This document shows, in pieces, positions 1 through 2,204 of a stretch of DNA of 2,204 nucleotides (the stretch's first letter is position 1; every line of letters starts with the position of its first letter). The position numbers and the translations under genes are program-made. Origin of the DNA: Escherichia coli. Its GTDB lineage: Bacteria > Pseudomonadota > Gammaproteobacteria > Enterobacterales > Enterobacteriaceae. The stretch lies in assembly GCF_003334335.1 (NCBI RefSeq), contig NZ_QOWQ01000093.1; one strand, written 5' to 3'. The notes under the pieces are model-generated. The model was given only the letters and a program-made list of their open reading frames with translations, did not search any database and was not told the DNA's origin.

Positions 1-77
1 GCAACCAGCATTAGTGAAAATGAAATACCGACAATCACACACAGGACCTTTGCCGGCGTTATGAGTTTGTCTGACAT
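1..77 (-). CDS. Partial CDS, N-terminus only (ATG at 77-75, continues past window start). Begins MSDKLITPAKVLCVIVGISFSLMLVA: short polar N-terminus then a hydrophobic segment, so a membrane-anchored or secreted protein; candidate Rz-like i-spanin
   Basis: Hand translation of the minus strand. ATG at 77-75 is preceded by AAGGGG (88-83) at a 5-nt spacing, a plausible Shine-Dalgarno. The frame is open to the window edge. Codon first positions are G-rich (gac, gca, gtc, gtg, gtc, ggt, gtt). The spanin assignment is inference from position downstream of an endolysin and N-terminal topology only; only 25 codons are visible. Confidence 0.4.
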   Translation of the reverse strand, partial: MSDKLITPAKVLCVIVGISFSLMLV

Positions 78-79
78 CT

Positions 80-160
80 TTACCCCTTGATAGCAGTAAT
101 TAACTGGGCAACCACCCATAAAAACGGAATCAGCCAGACCAGCAAAAATTTCCAGTCCAT
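80..160 (-). CDS. Micro-ORF, 26 aa, MDWKFLLVWLIPFLWVVAQLITAIKG: a single predicted transmembrane helix; possible small membrane peptide, could be spurious
   Basis: ATG at 160-158 lies 11 nt after the stop of the Rha-like gene (TGA 174-172); stop TAA at 82-80. Strongly hydrophobic and Trp-rich. Weak Shine-Dalgarno (GAAGATGATAAAA upstream), so translation would need coupling. Its 3' end carries the Shine-Dalgarno of the next ORF. A T at codon position 2 throughout could generate this by chance. Confidence 0.2.
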   Translation of the reverse strand: MDWKFLLVWLIPFLWVVAQLITAIKG

Positions 161-171
161 TTTTATCATCT

Positions 172-867
172 TCATGCTGCGGTAGCTCTCCATGCAGCAA
201 GCAGACCAGCAATCCACTCAACACCTTTTGGGGTGAATTTAACCTGCGTAAAAGCATGACCATTGCCCGCCTCGCCCGTTTTCACGCTAAACCGCCCCGC
301 ATCCAGGTGATGCGAGTAAGGCGTCATTTTTCCAGCGAGGCGATACATTATTCCGTTCTCCAACAAAAACAGCCGGAAATCGGTTTCTTTGATACCGAGT
401 AACTTAGCAACTTCCCGGAATCCCATCAGACCAGATGCTTCAACATAGTTATCAACAAATTCAGCCTTCGGCGCTGCTATTGCCAGTTGATTTTCCAGCA
501 CTGCTTTCTGTTCAGCCAGTTTTGCCGCAAATCGCAACGCCTCAGGTAAAGTCCGGGGGATCTGAATACCATGCATCGCTTTGAGTCTTGCCAGCACAGA
601 ACGACGAACGGCCTTTGACTCCCTCATGCCAACGAGCATCATCTGGTCAAAATCCAGATCATAGTATGCCGTTCTTGTCTGGTTATTGTTTAACCGGAAT
701 TTTTTTCCGGTTCCATCAAGCTCTAGCTCATCCTCAATTTTTGCAAGAAACTTACGCGGTTCATGAGGGACTTCTCCGGCTTCTGCCCGGGCTGGATTAA
801 TAATGTTATTCAGAAAATCCAGACTACTCATGGATATTTCATGATCGACAGAAATCATCTCTTTCAT
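172..867 (-). CDS. Phage regulatory protein / antirepressor, Rha-like N-terminal domain plus KilA-C (ANT) C-terminal domain, 231 aa
   Basis: Complete ORF in the supplied track. Shine-Dalgarno AAGGA sits 7 nt upstream of ATG 867-865 (minus strand reads AAAAGGAATCAACC-ATG). The C-terminal half (LPEALRFAAKLAEQ...APKAEFVDNYVEASGLMGFREVAKLLGIKETDFRLFLLENGIMYR...GRFSVKTGEAGNGHAFTQVKFTPKGVEWIAGLL) matches my recollection of the KilA-C/ANT antirepressor domain. The N-terminal half (KFLAKIEDELE...YYDLDFDQMMLVGMRESKAVRRSVLARLKAM) resembles the Rha-family N-terminal domain. Both assignments are from memory, not a search. Confidence 0.85.
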   Translation of the reverse strand: MKEMISVDHEISMSSLDFLNNIINPARAEAGEVPHEPRKFLAKIEDELELDGTGKKFRLNNNQTRTAYYDLDFDQMMLVGMRESKAVRRSVLARLKAMHGIQIPRTLPEALRFAAKLAEQKAVLENQLAIAAPKAEFVDNYVEASGLMGFREVAKLLGIKETDFRLFLLENGIMYRLAGKMTPYSHHLDAGRFSVKTGEAGNGHAFTQVKFTPKGVEWIAGLLAAWRATAA

Positions 868-1013
868 GGTTGATTCCTTTTAGTGATGAACCCTGCGCAC
901 AGGAATAACCAGCCCAAAGAGGGTTAACCAGACCACTGCCGGTTATCCACCAGGGCTCATCCTGAAAGGTTCTTTGGTTTATTTACGCTTGTGCGAAGCG
1001 CAGAAATGACAAA

Positions 1014-1030
1014 GGCACCATTACGGTGCC
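1014..1030 (-). terminator. Small hairpin GGCACC-N5-GGTGCC; on the minus strand it is followed by TTTGTCATTTCT. Weak candidate terminator or RNA stability element downstream of the endolysin
   Basis: Seen directly: 6-bp perfect inverted repeat with a 5-nt loop, 110 nt downstream of the endolysin stop, with a T-rich but interrupted tail on the minus strand. The stem is short, so termination efficiency is doubtful. Confidence 0.25.
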
Positions 1031-1140
1031 TCTGCGTGAAATAATGTTCCTGACTTTATTCACTTACATTTTGCCAGCTCGCAGGATTTCGTGTTATCCG
1101 CCCGCGTTGGCCAACGTCATTTTTCAGCAAAATATTCTGC

Positions 1141-1674
1141 TTATCTGTCGATTCCCCAGCACGCCAGCGCGCTCTCCTGGTCTCGCCGGGATACCTGACC
1201 GTAACAGTTATTTGAGCGAATACGGCAGTCCCTGCCACCGTCCTTAATCCACCAGCGAATCGCTTCGCAGGCACCTTTTCGATCACCAGCATTAATTCGT
1301 CTGTAAAACGTCGACGGGAAACACTTACCGGGACCAATGTTGTACGGACAGAATGACGCGATCCCCGCTTTCTGGGGTTCGGTCAGCGGCACTCTGATGT
1401 TTTTCTCCACCCACGCCAGCGCTTTATCACGCTCAATGGCGTTAACCTGGTCGCATTTTTCCTTCGACAACTTCATGCCGGGGACGACAGGCTTACCATC
1501 CACCCGGGTGGCACCACGGCAGATGGTCCAGATACCTGCACCATCACGGTATGCCGTGGTGTGGTTACCTTCCTTTTCATCCAGAAACTGGTCGAGAATT
1601 TCAGGCGCAGAAGCCCCTGCGGCAATCAGCGCCAGAACGGCAGCCGACAGGCCGTATTTGATTTTTGCGTTCAT
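1141..1674 (-). CDS. SAR endolysin (phage-21 R-type lysozyme, T4-lysozyme-like muramidase), 177 aa
   Basis: Complete ORF. The N-terminus YGLSAAVLALIAAGASA is the Gly/Ala-rich weakly hydrophobic signal-anchor-release segment typical of SAR endolysins. The catalytic motif E-x8-D-x5-T is present at Glu35, Asp44 and Thr50 (EGNHTTAYRDGAGIWT), the same spacing as T4 lysozyme E11/D20/T26 and as I recall for phage 21 R. The whole protein closely resembles, from memory, the lysozymes of E. coli cryptic lambdoid prophages (RrrQ/RrrD type); this is not verified. Confidence 0.95.
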   Translation of the reverse strand: MNAKIKYGLSAAVLALIAAGASAPEILDQFLDEKEGNHTTAYRDGAGIWTICRGATRVDGKPVVPGMKLSKEKCDQVNAIERDKALAWVEKNIRVPLTEPQKAGIASFCPYNIGPGKCFPSTFYRRINAGDRKGACEAIRWWIKDGGRDCRIRSNNCYGQVSRRDQESALACWGIDR

Positions 1675-1731
1675 GGATATTTATCAGGATTTATCGGTTC
1701 CGAATCCCTGGATATGTTAAGCCTTCACCCC

Positions 1732-1750
1732 GCCAGTGGTGGGCACTGGC
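1732..1750. promoter_or_regulatory. Perfect 7-bp inverted repeat GCCAGTG-gtggg-CACTGGC in the intergenic region between the endolysin start and the + strand ORF; candidate operator or RNA hairpin
   Basis: Seen directly. Centred about 45 nt upstream of ATG 1786. No T-run on either side, so it is not a terminator. No convincing sigma-70 -35/-10 pair could be placed nearby by eye. Confidence 0.3.
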
Positions 1751-1785
1751 CAGGGTATGTCAATCTGATAAACACAGAGGTGACT

Positions 1786-2046
1786 ATGGATTATCCAAAT
1801 CTACCAAAACAAACTTTTGCTGATTTAATCGCACTCAGGCAAGCAGTCGTAGCTCTAATCAACGTGTTGCCGGATGAGGAAAAGGAATTAGTTAAAGCAA
1901 TTCTTAACAGAACTGCCGCCGATTTTTCATCATTCCCACTGACAGATGACCTTGCGGACCTTCCTGAATTAATTGCAGCGTCCGCCATTAAGCTTACTGA
2001 AGAGATTTACTCTCCTCAAAAGCCTTCACAAAATTCCTGCGAGTAA
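1786..2046 (+). CDS. Hypothetical small acidic protein, 86 aa (MDYPNLPKQTFADLIALRQAVVALINVLPDEEKELVKAILNRTAADFSSFPLTDDLADLPELIAASAIKLTEEIYSPQKPSQNSCE); moron-like gene on the strand opposite the lysis genes
   Basis: An internal ATG of the 161-aa + strand ORF in the track. Shine-Dalgarno GAGG at 1777-1780 lies 5 nt before ATG 1786 (AGAGGTGACT-ATG). Codon first positions are G-rich, consistent with real coding. The ORF is AT-rich: I counted about 109 G+C in 261 nt (about 42%), against roughly 50-63% in the endolysin stretches I counted. A strong intrinsic terminator follows 20 nt after the stop. The 5' extension of the track ORF (1561-1785) is antisense to the endolysin and lacks a ribosome-binding site, so the 1786 start is preferred. 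No family could be assigned from memory. Confidence 0.55.
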   Translation: MDYPNLPKQTFADLIALRQAVVALINVLPDEEKELVKAILNRTAADFSSFPLTDDLADLPELIAASAIKLTEEIYSPQKPSQNSCE

Positions 2047-2204
2047 CTTCAATGCAATAATCGTAAAACGCCGCGAACTGCTCATCGCGGCGTTTTTCTT
2101 CAGGCCGCTGAAGATGCTCTTTCAACCGTGAAGCGCAGCTTAGATGCGCCGCGCGATCAAGAATAGTTTCTTTCATTTCATCTGCTGCAAGCACCTCATT
2201 TTTT
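1994..2204 (-). CDS. Partial CDS, C-terminal part only (frame is open to the window end; true start lies beyond 2204). Hydrophilic, highly charged tail ...AADEMKETILDRAAHLSCASRLKEHLQRPEEKRRDEQFAAFYDYCIEVTRRNFVKAFEESKSLQ; function unknown
   Basis: The track start at 2194 is a GTG; codons 2195-2203 continue without a stop (K-N-E), so the gene probably starts outside the window. Codon first positions are strongly G-biased and codon usage is E. coli-like, which supports real coding. Its last 17 codons overlap the 3' end of the + strand ORF (1994-2046) and it reads through the terminator hairpin, which lowers confidence. It is not obviously a holin: no hydrophobic segment is visible. Confidence 0.45.
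   Translation of the reverse strand, partial: KNEVLAADEMKETILDRAAHLSCASRLKEHLQRPEEKRRDEQFAAFYDYCIEVTRRNFVKAFEESKSLQ
2065..2097 (+). terminator. Rho-independent terminator: 12-bp stem (AAAACGCCGCGA / TCGCGGCGTTTT, 8 GC-rich core pairs) with 8-nt loop ACTGCTCA, followed by TTTTTCTT
   Basis: Seen directly, 20 nt downstream of the stop of the + strand ORF. An A-run precedes the stem, so the minus-strand transcript also gets a short U-run (possibly bidirectional). It lies inside the reading frame of the minus-strand partial ORF 1994..2204. Confidence 0.6.

What the first reader, a model, noticed from the sequence alone, without database searches (positions are those of the whole stretch)
1141..1790. 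SAR endolysin detached from any holin and lacking a Shine-Dalgarno
In phage-21-type cassettes the pinholin gene directly abuts or overlaps the SAR endolysin. Here all three minus-strand frames hit a stop within 1681-1727 upstream of the endolysin start, and the nearest upstream minus-strand coding ends at 1994, about 320 nt away. The 20 nt before the ATG (ATAAATCCTGATAAATATCC) contain no GGAG/AGGA/GAGG motif. The catalytic triad and SAR segment look intact, so the enzyme is probably functional but its expression and release partner are unclear. The intervening space is occupied by the opposite-strand moron.
Basis: partly seen in the sequence, partly recalled or inferred. Interest (0 to 1): 0.4.

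Follow-up and report, generated by a model that had tools for sequence, protein, structure and literature searches.

The report
Prophage endolysin with distant holin partner
This is an ordinary cell-bursting enzyme gene of an E. coli lambda-like prophage. Its pore-forming partner gene lies about 960 bases upstream, just outside the window, and its lack of a ribosome-binding motif is shared by all 71 similarly separated copies examined.

Summary
The sequence-level observation is correct. ORF 1141-1674 (minus strand) encodes an intact phage-21-type SAR endolysin. All three upstream frames close within 1681-1727. The nearest upstream coding ends at 1994. The leader has no Shine-Dalgarno pairing.

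The interpretation "detached from any holin" is not supported. Phage PhiR5_1 is 99.5% identical over the whole window. E. coli STEC2018-607 is 100% identical over 1675-2204. In both, the same late operon reads: P21-family holin S, YdfR-like DUF1327 gene, opposite-strand 86-aa ORF, R, ant, small ORFs, Rz/Rz1. The holin stop lies 958 nt upstream of the R start.

Separation is the usual state for this R family:
- Of 80 viral contigs with an R at least 95% identical, 76 show the holin upstream.
- Five abut R and have a Shine-Dalgarno.
- 71 lie 378-1445 nt away, and all 71 lack one.
- The SD-less junction occurs in 2113 of 5426 complete E. coli genomes. The abutting junction occurs in 636.

The leader is the least structured start region among the 19 starts scored (18 genes) of the late region. 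Positions -23 to -1 are invariant in 10 of 12 loci. The window-specific feature is a roughly 566-nt insertion at the ydfR 3' end, present in about 5% of genomes. Verdict: a known arrangement of low interest.

The parts
1141..1674 (-). R, a 177-aa SAR endolysin (GH24 phage lysozyme)
   Evidence: ORF. Pfam PF00959 E = 5.4e-25. PHROG 7 endolysin. Aligns with R21 structure 3HDE at E = 3e-17 and with RrrD structure 4ZPU. pN/pS about 0.1 against diverged alleles.
1603..1656 (-). Codons 7-24, YGLSAAVLALIAAGASAP: the SAR (signal-anchor-release) segment, preceded by MNAKIK
   Evidence: Uncharged, 61% Gly/Ala/Ser, best Kyte-Doolittle window in the protein, no Cys. Aligned to the R21 SAR region.
1525..1572 (-). 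Codons 35-50 carrying the catalytic triad E35, D44, T50
   Evidence: The spacing matches R21 as aligned (EG...Y.D..G.WT.C.G).
1675..1697 (-). SD-less, AU-rich proximal leader (-23 to -1: CGATAAATCCTGATAAATATCC) of R
   Evidence: No anti-SD pairing. The -30 to +30 region folds at only -1.9 kcal/mol, z = +1.79, and 199 of 200 shuffles fold at least as well. Invariant in 10 of 12 loci although flanking and synonymous sites diverge. The same or a similar leader is in 75 of 80 IMG/VR loci.
1698..1727 (-). Distal leader: a remnant of the 3' end of an uninterrupted ydfR, including its former stop TAA at 1717-1719
   Evidence: Alignment with the insert-free arrangement of E. coli O103 ML775, where ydfR stops 50 nt before R.
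1726..1757 (.). Hairpin (CCAGTG-cccac-CACTGG core) at the R-proximal boundary of the insertion
   Evidence: Predicted. Also present next to a different cargo in O157:H7 146N4 and Stx1_14040. Function unknown. No U-run follows it on either strand.
1728..2204 (.). In-window part of a roughly 566-nt insertion (window-equivalent 1728-2293) relative to the plain S-ydfR-R arrangement
   Evidence: blastn breakpoints. The region 1675-2204 is present at 80% coverage or more in 281 records (282 genomes) of 5426 complete E. coli genomes.
1786..2046 (+). 86-aa opposite-strand ORF of unknown function (orf86), with SD GAGGTG at 1777-1782
   Evidence: SD -7.1 kcal/mol. PHROG 2572, function unknown. Homologs essentially only in E. 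coli (one partial Salmonella hit), the best 12 hits at 81-99% identity. The GenBank label DUF1823 is not supported (E = 0.042 over 30 residues). pN/pS 0.6-0.75 on 12-15 differences, which is inconclusive. No sigma-70-like promoter found upstream.
2065..2101 (+). 12-bp terminator-like hairpin (AAAACGCCGCGA / TCGCGGCGTTTT) 19 nt after the orf86 stop, embedded in the DUF1327 coding sequence
   Evidence: Fold of the 71-nt region -20.5 kcal/mol, z = -2.31. The region 2054-2102 is 96% conserved next to a different cargo in L004.
1994..2204 (-). C-terminal extension of a 211-aa YdfR-like (DUF1327) protein. The gene continues to window-equivalent 2629, and holin S follows at 2633-2848.
   Evidence: PF07041 covers residues 1-112 only. 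An in-frame 84-nt indel gives the 183-aa form found in phage 2H10 and others. Extension motifs recur in L004 and L008 proteins.
1009..1035 (-). Strong hairpin followed by UCAUUUCU, about 105 nt downstream of the R stop
   Evidence: fold of the 66-nt region -24.2 kcal/mol, z = -3.78, 0 of 200 shuffles as stable.
172..867 (-). ant, an antirepressor-like gene lying between R and Rz/Rz1
   Evidence: PHROG 63 anti-repressor Ant, E = 1.3e-57. RefSeq product name KilAC-domain antirepressor.

Best explanation
R is a working SAR endolysin of a normal lambdoid late operon whose lysis genes are interspersed with accessory genes.

Shown:
- Gene order on the minus strand is Q ... nanS-like esterase ... holin S (P21 family, 71 aa, MYQMEK start) - YdfR-like DUF1327 gene (211 aa) - [86-aa ORF on the opposite strand] - R - ant - three small ORFs, at least two with hydrophobic stretches - Rz/Rz1 - terminase.
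- The window differs from the common S-ydfR-(50 nt)-R layout by a roughly 566-nt insertion at the ydfR 3' end.

Inferred from established phage-21 and lambda biology:
- Q-antiterminated transcription from the late promoter reads through the whole block, including the embedded hairpins.
- R is exported by Sec and held inactive in the inner membrane by its Gly/Ala-rich N-terminal segment.
- R is released and activated when the pinholin depolarises the membrane. The two proteins act in trans, so the genes need not be adjacent.

Inferred for translation:
- R is translated on its own from a conserved, AU-rich, unstructured start region without Shine-Dalgarno pairing. This is the kind of initiation described for SD-less mRNAs with locally open structure.
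- It is not coupled to an upstream ORF.
For: Identity and context:
- 99.5% full-length identity to phage PhiR5_1, and 100% over 1675-2204 to STEC2018-607. Both have S and DUF1327 upstream on the same strand.
- Holin matches PF04971 at E = 8e-33. Rz and Rz1 are present.

Enzyme:
- PF00959, alignment with R21 structure 3HDE, triad E35/D44/T50, SAR-like segment, no Cys in the SAR segment.
- pN/pS about 0.1.

Generality:
- 76 of 80 IMG/VR loci have the holin upstream, and 71 of these are 378-1445 nt away.
- The SD-less junction is in 2113 of 5426 E. coli genomes, against 636 for the abutting junction.
- K-12 Qin carries essQ-ydfR-rrrQ.

Translation:
- R is the only gene with no SD pairing, and it has the least structured start region among the 19 starts scored.
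- Positions -23 to -1 are invariant while R third-codon positions differ by 0.33-0.60 in the diverged alleles.
- Open structure permits SD-less initiation (PMC3121790).
- Stx phages are reported to carry a SAR endolysin and a pinholin in 99% of cases (PMC8136144). Their holins belong to the P21 S family (PMC10462455).
Against: - The holin is inferred from near-identical genomes. The actual source sequence beyond 2204 was not available.
- No expression data exist for this locus. The efficiency of the SD-less start is unknown.
- Conservation of -23 to -1 could reflect a recombination linker and not selection on translation.
- SAR behaviour (Sec export, release on depolarisation) is inferred from sequence only.
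- The hairpins at 1726-1757 and 2065-2101 lie on the late transcript, and their effect on it is untested.
Confidence: 0.85

Rival explanations
1. R translation depends on termination-reinitiation or ribosome sliding from an upstream ORF. The missing SD would then be a legacy of translational coupling with ydfR.
For: In K-12 Qin the ydfR stop overlaps the rrrQ start (ATGA), and that leader also lacks an SD. In the insert-free layout ydfR stops only 50 nt upstream, in the same frame as R.
Against: In the window the DUF1327 ORF ends 319 nt upstream. The only leader ORFs are a 16-codon GTG...TGA ending at 1725-1727 and a 9-codon GTG...TAA ending at 1717-1719, both without an SD and 42-50 nt from the ATG (and direct reading). 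All 71 separated cassettes keep the SD-less leader whether the gap is 378 or 1445 nt.
Confidence: 0.05
2. R expression is controlled in trans at the conserved leader. Candidates are the co-inherited YdfR-like protein, which might bind RNA or shield it from RNase E, and antisense transcription from the opposite-strand cargo gene. Such control would set lysis timing.
For: 60 of the 71 separated, SD-less cassettes show the DUF1327 N-terminal domain between S and R, as do all 11 annotated SD-less genome or phage loci examined (L001-L004, L006-L009, L011-L013), complete or partial. K-12 YdfR co-purifies with the RNase E N-terminal domain and with RNA (PMC13232886). There is a conservation island at -23 to about +50. 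The opposite-strand ORF is convergent with the late transcript and overlaps the DUF1327 3' end by 53 nt.
Against: The linkage is explained by shared mosaic ancestry. Eleven separated SD-less cassettes show no DUF1327 hit. ydfR overexpression had little effect on the transcriptome (PMC13232886). No promoter was found for orf86. There is no direct evidence for any such control.
Confidence: 0.07
3. The cassette is a decaying remnant. R is orphaned, poorly expressed and no longer used for lysis.
For: RefSeq marks the interrupted DUF1327 gene as a partial pseudogene. rrrQ is frameshifted in one relative, strain PE164. Many such cassettes sit in cryptic prophages such as Qin.
Against: The identical arrangement is in a complete 51-kb phage genome whose record names E. 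coli C as host. R, S and Rz/Rz1 are all intact. R shows pN/pS about 0.1. The long DUF1327 form keeps its frame through an 84-nt indel.
Confidence: 0.03

Closest known systems
Phage 21 lysis cassette (S21 pinholin, R21 SAR endolysin, Rz/Rz1)
   Same: The holin matches the Pfam family built on P21 S. R aligns with R21 structure 3HDE over the SAR segment and the E-D-T triad, and has no SAR cysteine. The expected mechanism is the same.
   Different: R is only distantly similar to R21 in sequence (E = 3e-17). S and R are 958 nt apart with two genes in between. R and Rz are also separated, by ant and small ORFs. R has no SD.
E. coli K-12 Qin prophage essQ-ydfR-rrrQ (and DLP12 essD-rrrD)
   Same: Same order holin - YdfR - lysozyme. 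Same R family, with N-terminus MNTKIRYGLS. The leader next to the ATG is homologous (ataaatatc).
   Different: In K-12, ydfR encodes 103 aa and its stop overlaps the rrrQ start. In the window, ydfR carries a roughly 98-aa extension, an opposite-strand ORF is inserted, and R starts 319 nt after the nearest coding.
Stx-phage cassettes of the phi-O153 type (S abutting R, then ant, then Rz); I recall 933W having the same layout, from memory and not checked here
   Same: R codons from about 10 onward, ant and Rz are 97% identical to the window. Same pinholin family.
   Different: S ends 4 nt before R. The R N-terminus is MSRKLRYGLS. An SD (GGGGAGAG, -8.5 kcal/mol) lies in the S 3' end. This form is the minority: 5 of 76 sampled cassettes and 636 genomes against 2113.
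SAR endolysins encoded away from their holins in other phages (P1 Lyz with LydA/LydB; Mu gp22)
   Same: They show that a SAR endolysin need not be adjacent to its holin (PMC9025707 and PMC9239132; the unlinked position of P1 lyz is from my own knowledge).
   Different: Those are different phage types with different regulation (disulfide caging in P1 Lyz, a releasin in Mu). Here both genes remain in one late operon.
Lambdoid morons (extra genes inserted between conserved late genes, such as lambda bor and lom)
   Same: orf86 is an insertion that is present or absent among otherwise collinear phages. It is on the opposite strand, with its own SD and a terminator hairpin.
   Different: No promoter was identified. 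Selection on the ORF is not demonstrable. The insertion also extends the neighbouring DUF1327 reading frame.

Membership tests
SAR endolysin, R21 type | T4-lysozyme-like (GH24) muralytic domain | tested here: met
   PF00959 E = 5.4e-25, residues 33-167. PDB hits 7M5I, 3HDE and 4ZPU.
SAR endolysin, R21 type | Catalytic Glu-8 residues-Asp-5 residues-Thr triad | tested here: met
   E35, D44 and T50, aligned to the EG...D...WT motif of R21.
SAR endolysin, R21 type | N-terminal uncharged, weakly hydrophobic segment rich in Gly/Ala/Ser, after basic residues, and not cleaved | tested here: met
   Residues 7-24 are 61% Gly/Ala/Ser with no charge, and K4 and K6 precede them. Pro follows the ASA motif, which by general knowledge disfavours signal peptidase. 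This is sequence-level evidence only.
SAR endolysin, R21 type | No regulatory cysteine in the SAR segment (distinguishes it from the P1 Lyz type) | tested here: met
   The first Cys is C52.
SAR endolysin, R21 type | Sec-dependent export, membrane tethering, and release and activation on depolarisation | not testable with these tools
   Needs fractionation and energy-poison lysis assays.
Phage-21-type pinholin / SAR endolysin cassette | P21-family holin in the same late transcription unit | tested here: met
   PF04971 E = 8e-33, on the same strand in PhiR5_1 and STEC2018-607. It lies outside the window and is inferred through 99.5-100% identical genomes.
Phage-21-type pinholin / SAR endolysin cassette | Dual-start holin (antiholin and holin) | tested here: inconclusive
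   The sequence begins MYQMEK, with Met1 and Met4. Use of both starts was not tested.
Phage-21-type pinholin / SAR endolysin cassette | Holin gene abutting or overlapping the endolysin gene | tested here: not met
   958 nt apart. Adjacency is also not met in 71 of 76 related cassettes, so it is not a defining feature for this R family.
Phage-21-type pinholin / SAR endolysin cassette | Rz/Rz1 spanin pair downstream | tested here: met
   PHROG 13 and PHROG 3198 in L001 at 4260-4727 and 4322-4507, beyond the window.
YdfR / DUF1327 | PF07041 domain | tested here: met
   E = 1.8e-39, residues 1-112 of the 211-aa protein. Only its C-terminal extension lies in the window.
Moron | Insertion present in some and absent in other collinear phages | tested here: met
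   Breakpoints. Other cargos occupy the same site.
Moron | Own terminator | tested here: met
   12-bp hairpin plus U-tract at 2065-2101.
Moron | Own promoter | tested here: not met
   No sigma-70-like site on the + strand between 1675 and 1785. Other promoter types were not covered.
Pfam DUF1823 (the GenBank label of orf86) | Significant match to PF08853 | tested here: not met
   E = 0.042 over 30 residues.

The most novel reading that the evidence does not exclude
The SD-less, unstructured and nearly invariant R start region (-23 to about +50) is a regulated translation element. Its output would be set in trans by the co-inherited YdfR-like protein, whose K-12 homolog binds the RNase E catalytic domain and possibly RNA. 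The site next to it would be a dedicated slot for exchangeable opposite-strand cargo genes. YdfR would then be a previously unrecognised lysis-timing factor in a large share of E. coli prophages.
Probability: 0.07. Interest if true: 0.5.

Novelty: already known. Interest (0 to 1): 0.15.

Why it matters
It matters little beyond correct annotation.

- The endolysin is not orphaned, and the cassette is a standard pinholin/SAR-endolysin system with accessory genes between the lysis genes.
- In this R family, separation from the holin and an SD-less start always go together (71 of 71 separated cassettes). This form is the majority in E. coli, so "holin abuts endolysin" should not be used as a rule for judging these cassettes.
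- The ydfR-R junction is a recurrent insertion site for unrelated small opposite-strand ORFs of unknown function.
- The "DUF1823" label in the GenBank record is unfounded.

Tried and rejected
- Alternative start codon with a proper RBS: rejected. An in-frame stop lies 6 nt upstream and the next Met is residue 67.
- Weak or extended anti-SD pairing: the only pairing is GGAA at -27 to -24, too far from the ATG, and it does not differ from shuffles.
- Known RNA element in the leader or elsewhere: Rfam gave no match at E up to 1.
- Sigma-70 promoter for orf86: none found.
- Defence-system or other function for orf86, the L004 cargo ORF and the DUF1327 protein: no PADLOC or NCBIfam hit, and PHROGs of unknown function only.
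- Selection test on orf86: too few differences to decide.
- Literature on the PhiR phages: none held. DUF1327 is mentioned once, in passing.
- Compensatory changes in the 1726-1757 hairpin: only outer-stem variation and G-U wobbles were seen, which is uninformative.
- Structure prediction was not run, because sequence-level matches to solved R21 and RrrD structures already place the fold.

Full report
**Observation.** The window was read and its ORFs listed. The minus-strand ORF 1141-1674 starts with ATG at 1672-1674 and encodes 177 aa. Going upstream on the minus strand, the three frames close at TAA 1681-1683, TAA 1691-1693 and TGA 1725-1727. The next long minus-strand ORF ends at TAA 1994-1996, 319 nt away. 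The 20 nt before the ATG are ATAAATCCTGATAAATATCC, and their best duplex with the 16S 3' tail is +0.3 kcal/mol. With a longer leader and a longer anti-SD, the only pairing is GGAA at -27 to -24. That is too far from the ATG and no better than shuffles. No other start is possible: an in-frame stop lies 6 nt upstream, and the next Met is residue 67.

**What the gene is.** The protein matches Pfam Phage_lysozyme PF00959 (E = 5.4e-25) and the PHROG endolysin family 7. It aligns with the solved structures of the phage 21 endolysin R21 (3HDE, E = 3e-17) and of RrrD (4ZPU), from the N-terminal hydrophobic segment to the C-terminus. E35, D44 and T50 are in place. Residues 7-24 (YGLSAAVLALIAAGASAP) are uncharged and 61% Gly/Ala/Ser. 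They follow MNAKIK and contain no cysteine. At sequence level this is an R21-type SAR endolysin. Against diverged alleles its pN/pS is about 0.1, with pS up to 0.6, so it is under strong purifying selection.

**Context beyond the window.** The whole window is 99.5% identical to Escherichia phage PhiR5_1, a complete 51-kb genome whose record names E. coli C as host. The stretch 1675-2204 is 100% identical to PhiR5_1 and to E. coli STEC2018-607. In PhiR5_1 the minus strand reads as follows:
- antiterminator Q, then an ORF labelled only as a CP-933V prophage protein there (its counterpart in related loci is a SASA-family / NanS-type esterase), two small genes, and holin S (71 aa);
- a 211-aa DUF1327 protein, then the 86-aa ORF on the opposite strand;
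- R, ant, three small ORFs (at least two with hydrophobic stretches), Rz/Rz1, and terminase.

The holin matches Pfam PF04971 "Bacteriophage P21 holin S" over its full length (E = 8e-33) and begins MYQMEK. Its stop is 958 nt upstream of the R ATG, at window-equivalent 2633-2848. ORF 1994-2204 is the C-terminus of the DUF1327 protein, not of a holin. The endolysin is therefore physically separated from its holin but not without one. RefSeq shows the same order in STEC2018-607.

**What fills the gap.** The comparison used E. coli O103 ML775, where ydfR (114 aa) stops 50 nt before R. It shows that the window carries a roughly 566-nt insertion (window-equivalent 1728-2293) at the very end of ydfR. 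The last 50 nt of the R leader still contain the old ydfR 3' end and its stop (TAA 1717-1719). The insertion has three consequences:
- It extends the DUF1327 reading frame by about 98 codons. PF07041 covers only residues 1-112.
- It brings the + strand ORF 1786-2046, which has a good SD (GAGGTG, -7.1 kcal/mol).
- It brings a 12-bp terminator-like hairpin at 2065-2101, 19 nt after that ORF's stop and inside the DUF1327 coding sequence.

The extension looks like real coding sequence. An 84-nt in-frame indel produces the 183-aa form seen in phage 2H10 and others, and its motifs recur in proteins of other loci. The status of orf86 is weaker:
- Its homologs are essentially confined to E. coli, apart from one partial Salmonella hit; the best 12 hits are 81-99% identical.
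- PHROG 2572 has no known function.
- The record's "DUF1823" label is not supported (E = 0.042).
- pN/pS is 0.6-0.75 on only 12-15 differences.
- No sigma-70-like promoter precedes it.

It fits the moron pattern except for the missing promoter.

**How general the arrangement is.**
- The insertion-bearing stretch 1675-2204 is found at 80% coverage or more in 281 records (282 genomes) of 5426 complete E. coli genomes.
- The SD-less junction (40 nt of R plus 53 nt of leader) is in 2113 genomes. The junction in which S abuts R is in 636.
- Among 80 IMG/VR contigs encoding an R at least 95% identical, 76 show the P21-type holin upstream on the same strand.
- In 5 of these the holin ends 4 nt before R. 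There R starts MSRKLRYGLS and an SD (-8.5 kcal/mol) lies in the holin's 3' end.
- In the other 71 the holin is 378-1445 nt away. All 71 lack an SD, and 60 show the DUF1327 N-terminal domain in between.
- K-12 Qin has essQ-ydfR-rrrQ, with the ydfR stop overlapping the rrrQ start.

The premise that the pinholin normally abuts the endolysin does not hold for this family.

**The start region.**
- Among the 19 starts scored (18 genes) in the PhiR5_1 late region, R is the only one with no SD pairing. The others range from -2.4 to -10.3 kcal/mol. R also has the least structured -30 to +30 region, at -1.9 kcal/mol.
- Dinucleotide shuffles of that region average -6.2 kcal/mol. The z-score is +1.79, and 199 of 200 shuffles fold at least as well.
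- Across 12 related loci, positions -23 to -1 are identical in 10. In the same loci -60 to -24 differs by 0.03-0.65 (0.19-0.65 in all but the two closest loci), and third-codon positions of R beyond codon 20 differ by up to 0.60, 0.33-0.60 in the diverged alleles.

The SD-less leader is therefore a conserved feature and not an accident of this locus. Two readings fit: selection on an open, AU-rich initiation region, as described for SD-less mRNAs (PMC3121790), or a conserved linker that serves as a recombination joint. I cannot separate them here.

**Mechanism.** The gene order, the families and the leader properties are shown. The rest is inferred from established lambda and phage 21 biology. 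Q-modified polymerase transcribes the whole block, ignoring the hairpins at 2065-2101 and 1009-1035. R is exported by Sec and tethered inactive by its SAR segment. The pinholin collapses the membrane potential, and R is released and degrades the wall. Rz/Rz1 then disrupt the outer membrane. The proteins act in trans, so gene adjacency is not required. Published surveys agree: 99% of Stx phages carry a predicted SAR endolysin and a pinholin (PMC8136144), and their holins belong to the P21 S family (PMC10462455).

**Rivals.**
- Coupling to an upstream ORF works in K-12 but has no substrate here. Only two mini-ORFs without an SD end 42-50 nt upstream.
- A decaying remnant is unlikely, given intact S, R and Rz/Rz1, purifying selection on R, and a complete phage genome with the same cassette.
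- A regulatory role of the YdfR-like protein at the R leader is not excluded. K-12 YdfR binds the RNase E N-terminal domain and co-purifies with RNA (PMC13232886), and DUF1327 accompanies most SD-less R genes. However, the linkage is explained by common descent, and 11 separated cassettes lack it.

**Comparison and verdict.** This is a phage-21-type pinholin/SAR-endolysin system of the essQ-ydfR-rrrQ layout, with an additional insertion known from about 5% of E. coli genomes and already deposited and annotated. Nothing here lies outside known kinds. Interest is low.

Noticed in passing
window 1728-2101; L004 2577-3353; L011 1975-2214; L012 1946-2218: The junction between the ydfR 3' end and the R leader holds at least four unrelated opposite-strand ORFs in different prophages: 86 aa here, 79 aa, 90 aa, and up to 233 aa in O157:H7 146N4 and Stx1_14040. 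The 233-aa ORF is unannotated there and has no PHROG or PADLOC hit. The window cargo and the L004 cargo sit between the same two conserved flanks, window 1601-1750 and 2054-2102.
   Followed up: partly
window 1726-1757: A hairpin (core CCAGTG/CACTGG) lies exactly at the R-proximal insertion boundary and is shared by two different cargo types. No U-run follows it on either strand, and its function is unknown.
   Followed up: partly
window 1994-2204 and L001 6994-7629; L014 1877-2863: DUF1327 proteins combine a conserved N-terminal domain of about 112 aa with very different C-terminal extensions. Total lengths seen are 103, 114, 116, 183, 211, 263 and 328 aa. RefSeq treats several of the long forms as truncated pseudogenes.
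   Followed up: partly
window 1786-2046: The GenBank product name "DUF1823 containing protein" for this ORF in PhiR5_1 and the PhiR12 phages rests on a non-significant Pfam match (E = 0.042 over 30 residues).
   Followed up: yes
window 1009-1035 (minus strand): A very stable hairpin followed by UCAUUUCU lies in the 273-nt spacer between R and ant. The fold of the 66-nt region is -24.2 kcal/mol (z = -3.78). It is terminator-like on the late strand.
   Followed up: partly
window 1-217 (minus strand); L001 4827-5175: Between ant and Rz lie three small ORFs of 31, 43 and 38 aa (PHROGs 6632, 4906 and 1115, function unknown). The 31- and 43-aa products contain hydrophobic stretches. The lysis cassette is therefore also interrupted between R and Rz.
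   Followed up: no
window 1648-1674 versus L005 1759-1785: R alleles have two N-termini, MNAKIKYGLS and MSRKLRYGLS, that switch together with the upstream context. Several Stx1 phages match the window only up to 1647, so a mosaic joint lies inside the first 9 codons of R.
   Followed up: partly
L097 (IMGVR_UViG_2526164634_000015): This is the one related locus with 2500 nt of upstream sequence in which no P21-type holin was detected. Its R leader is also different.
   Followed up: no
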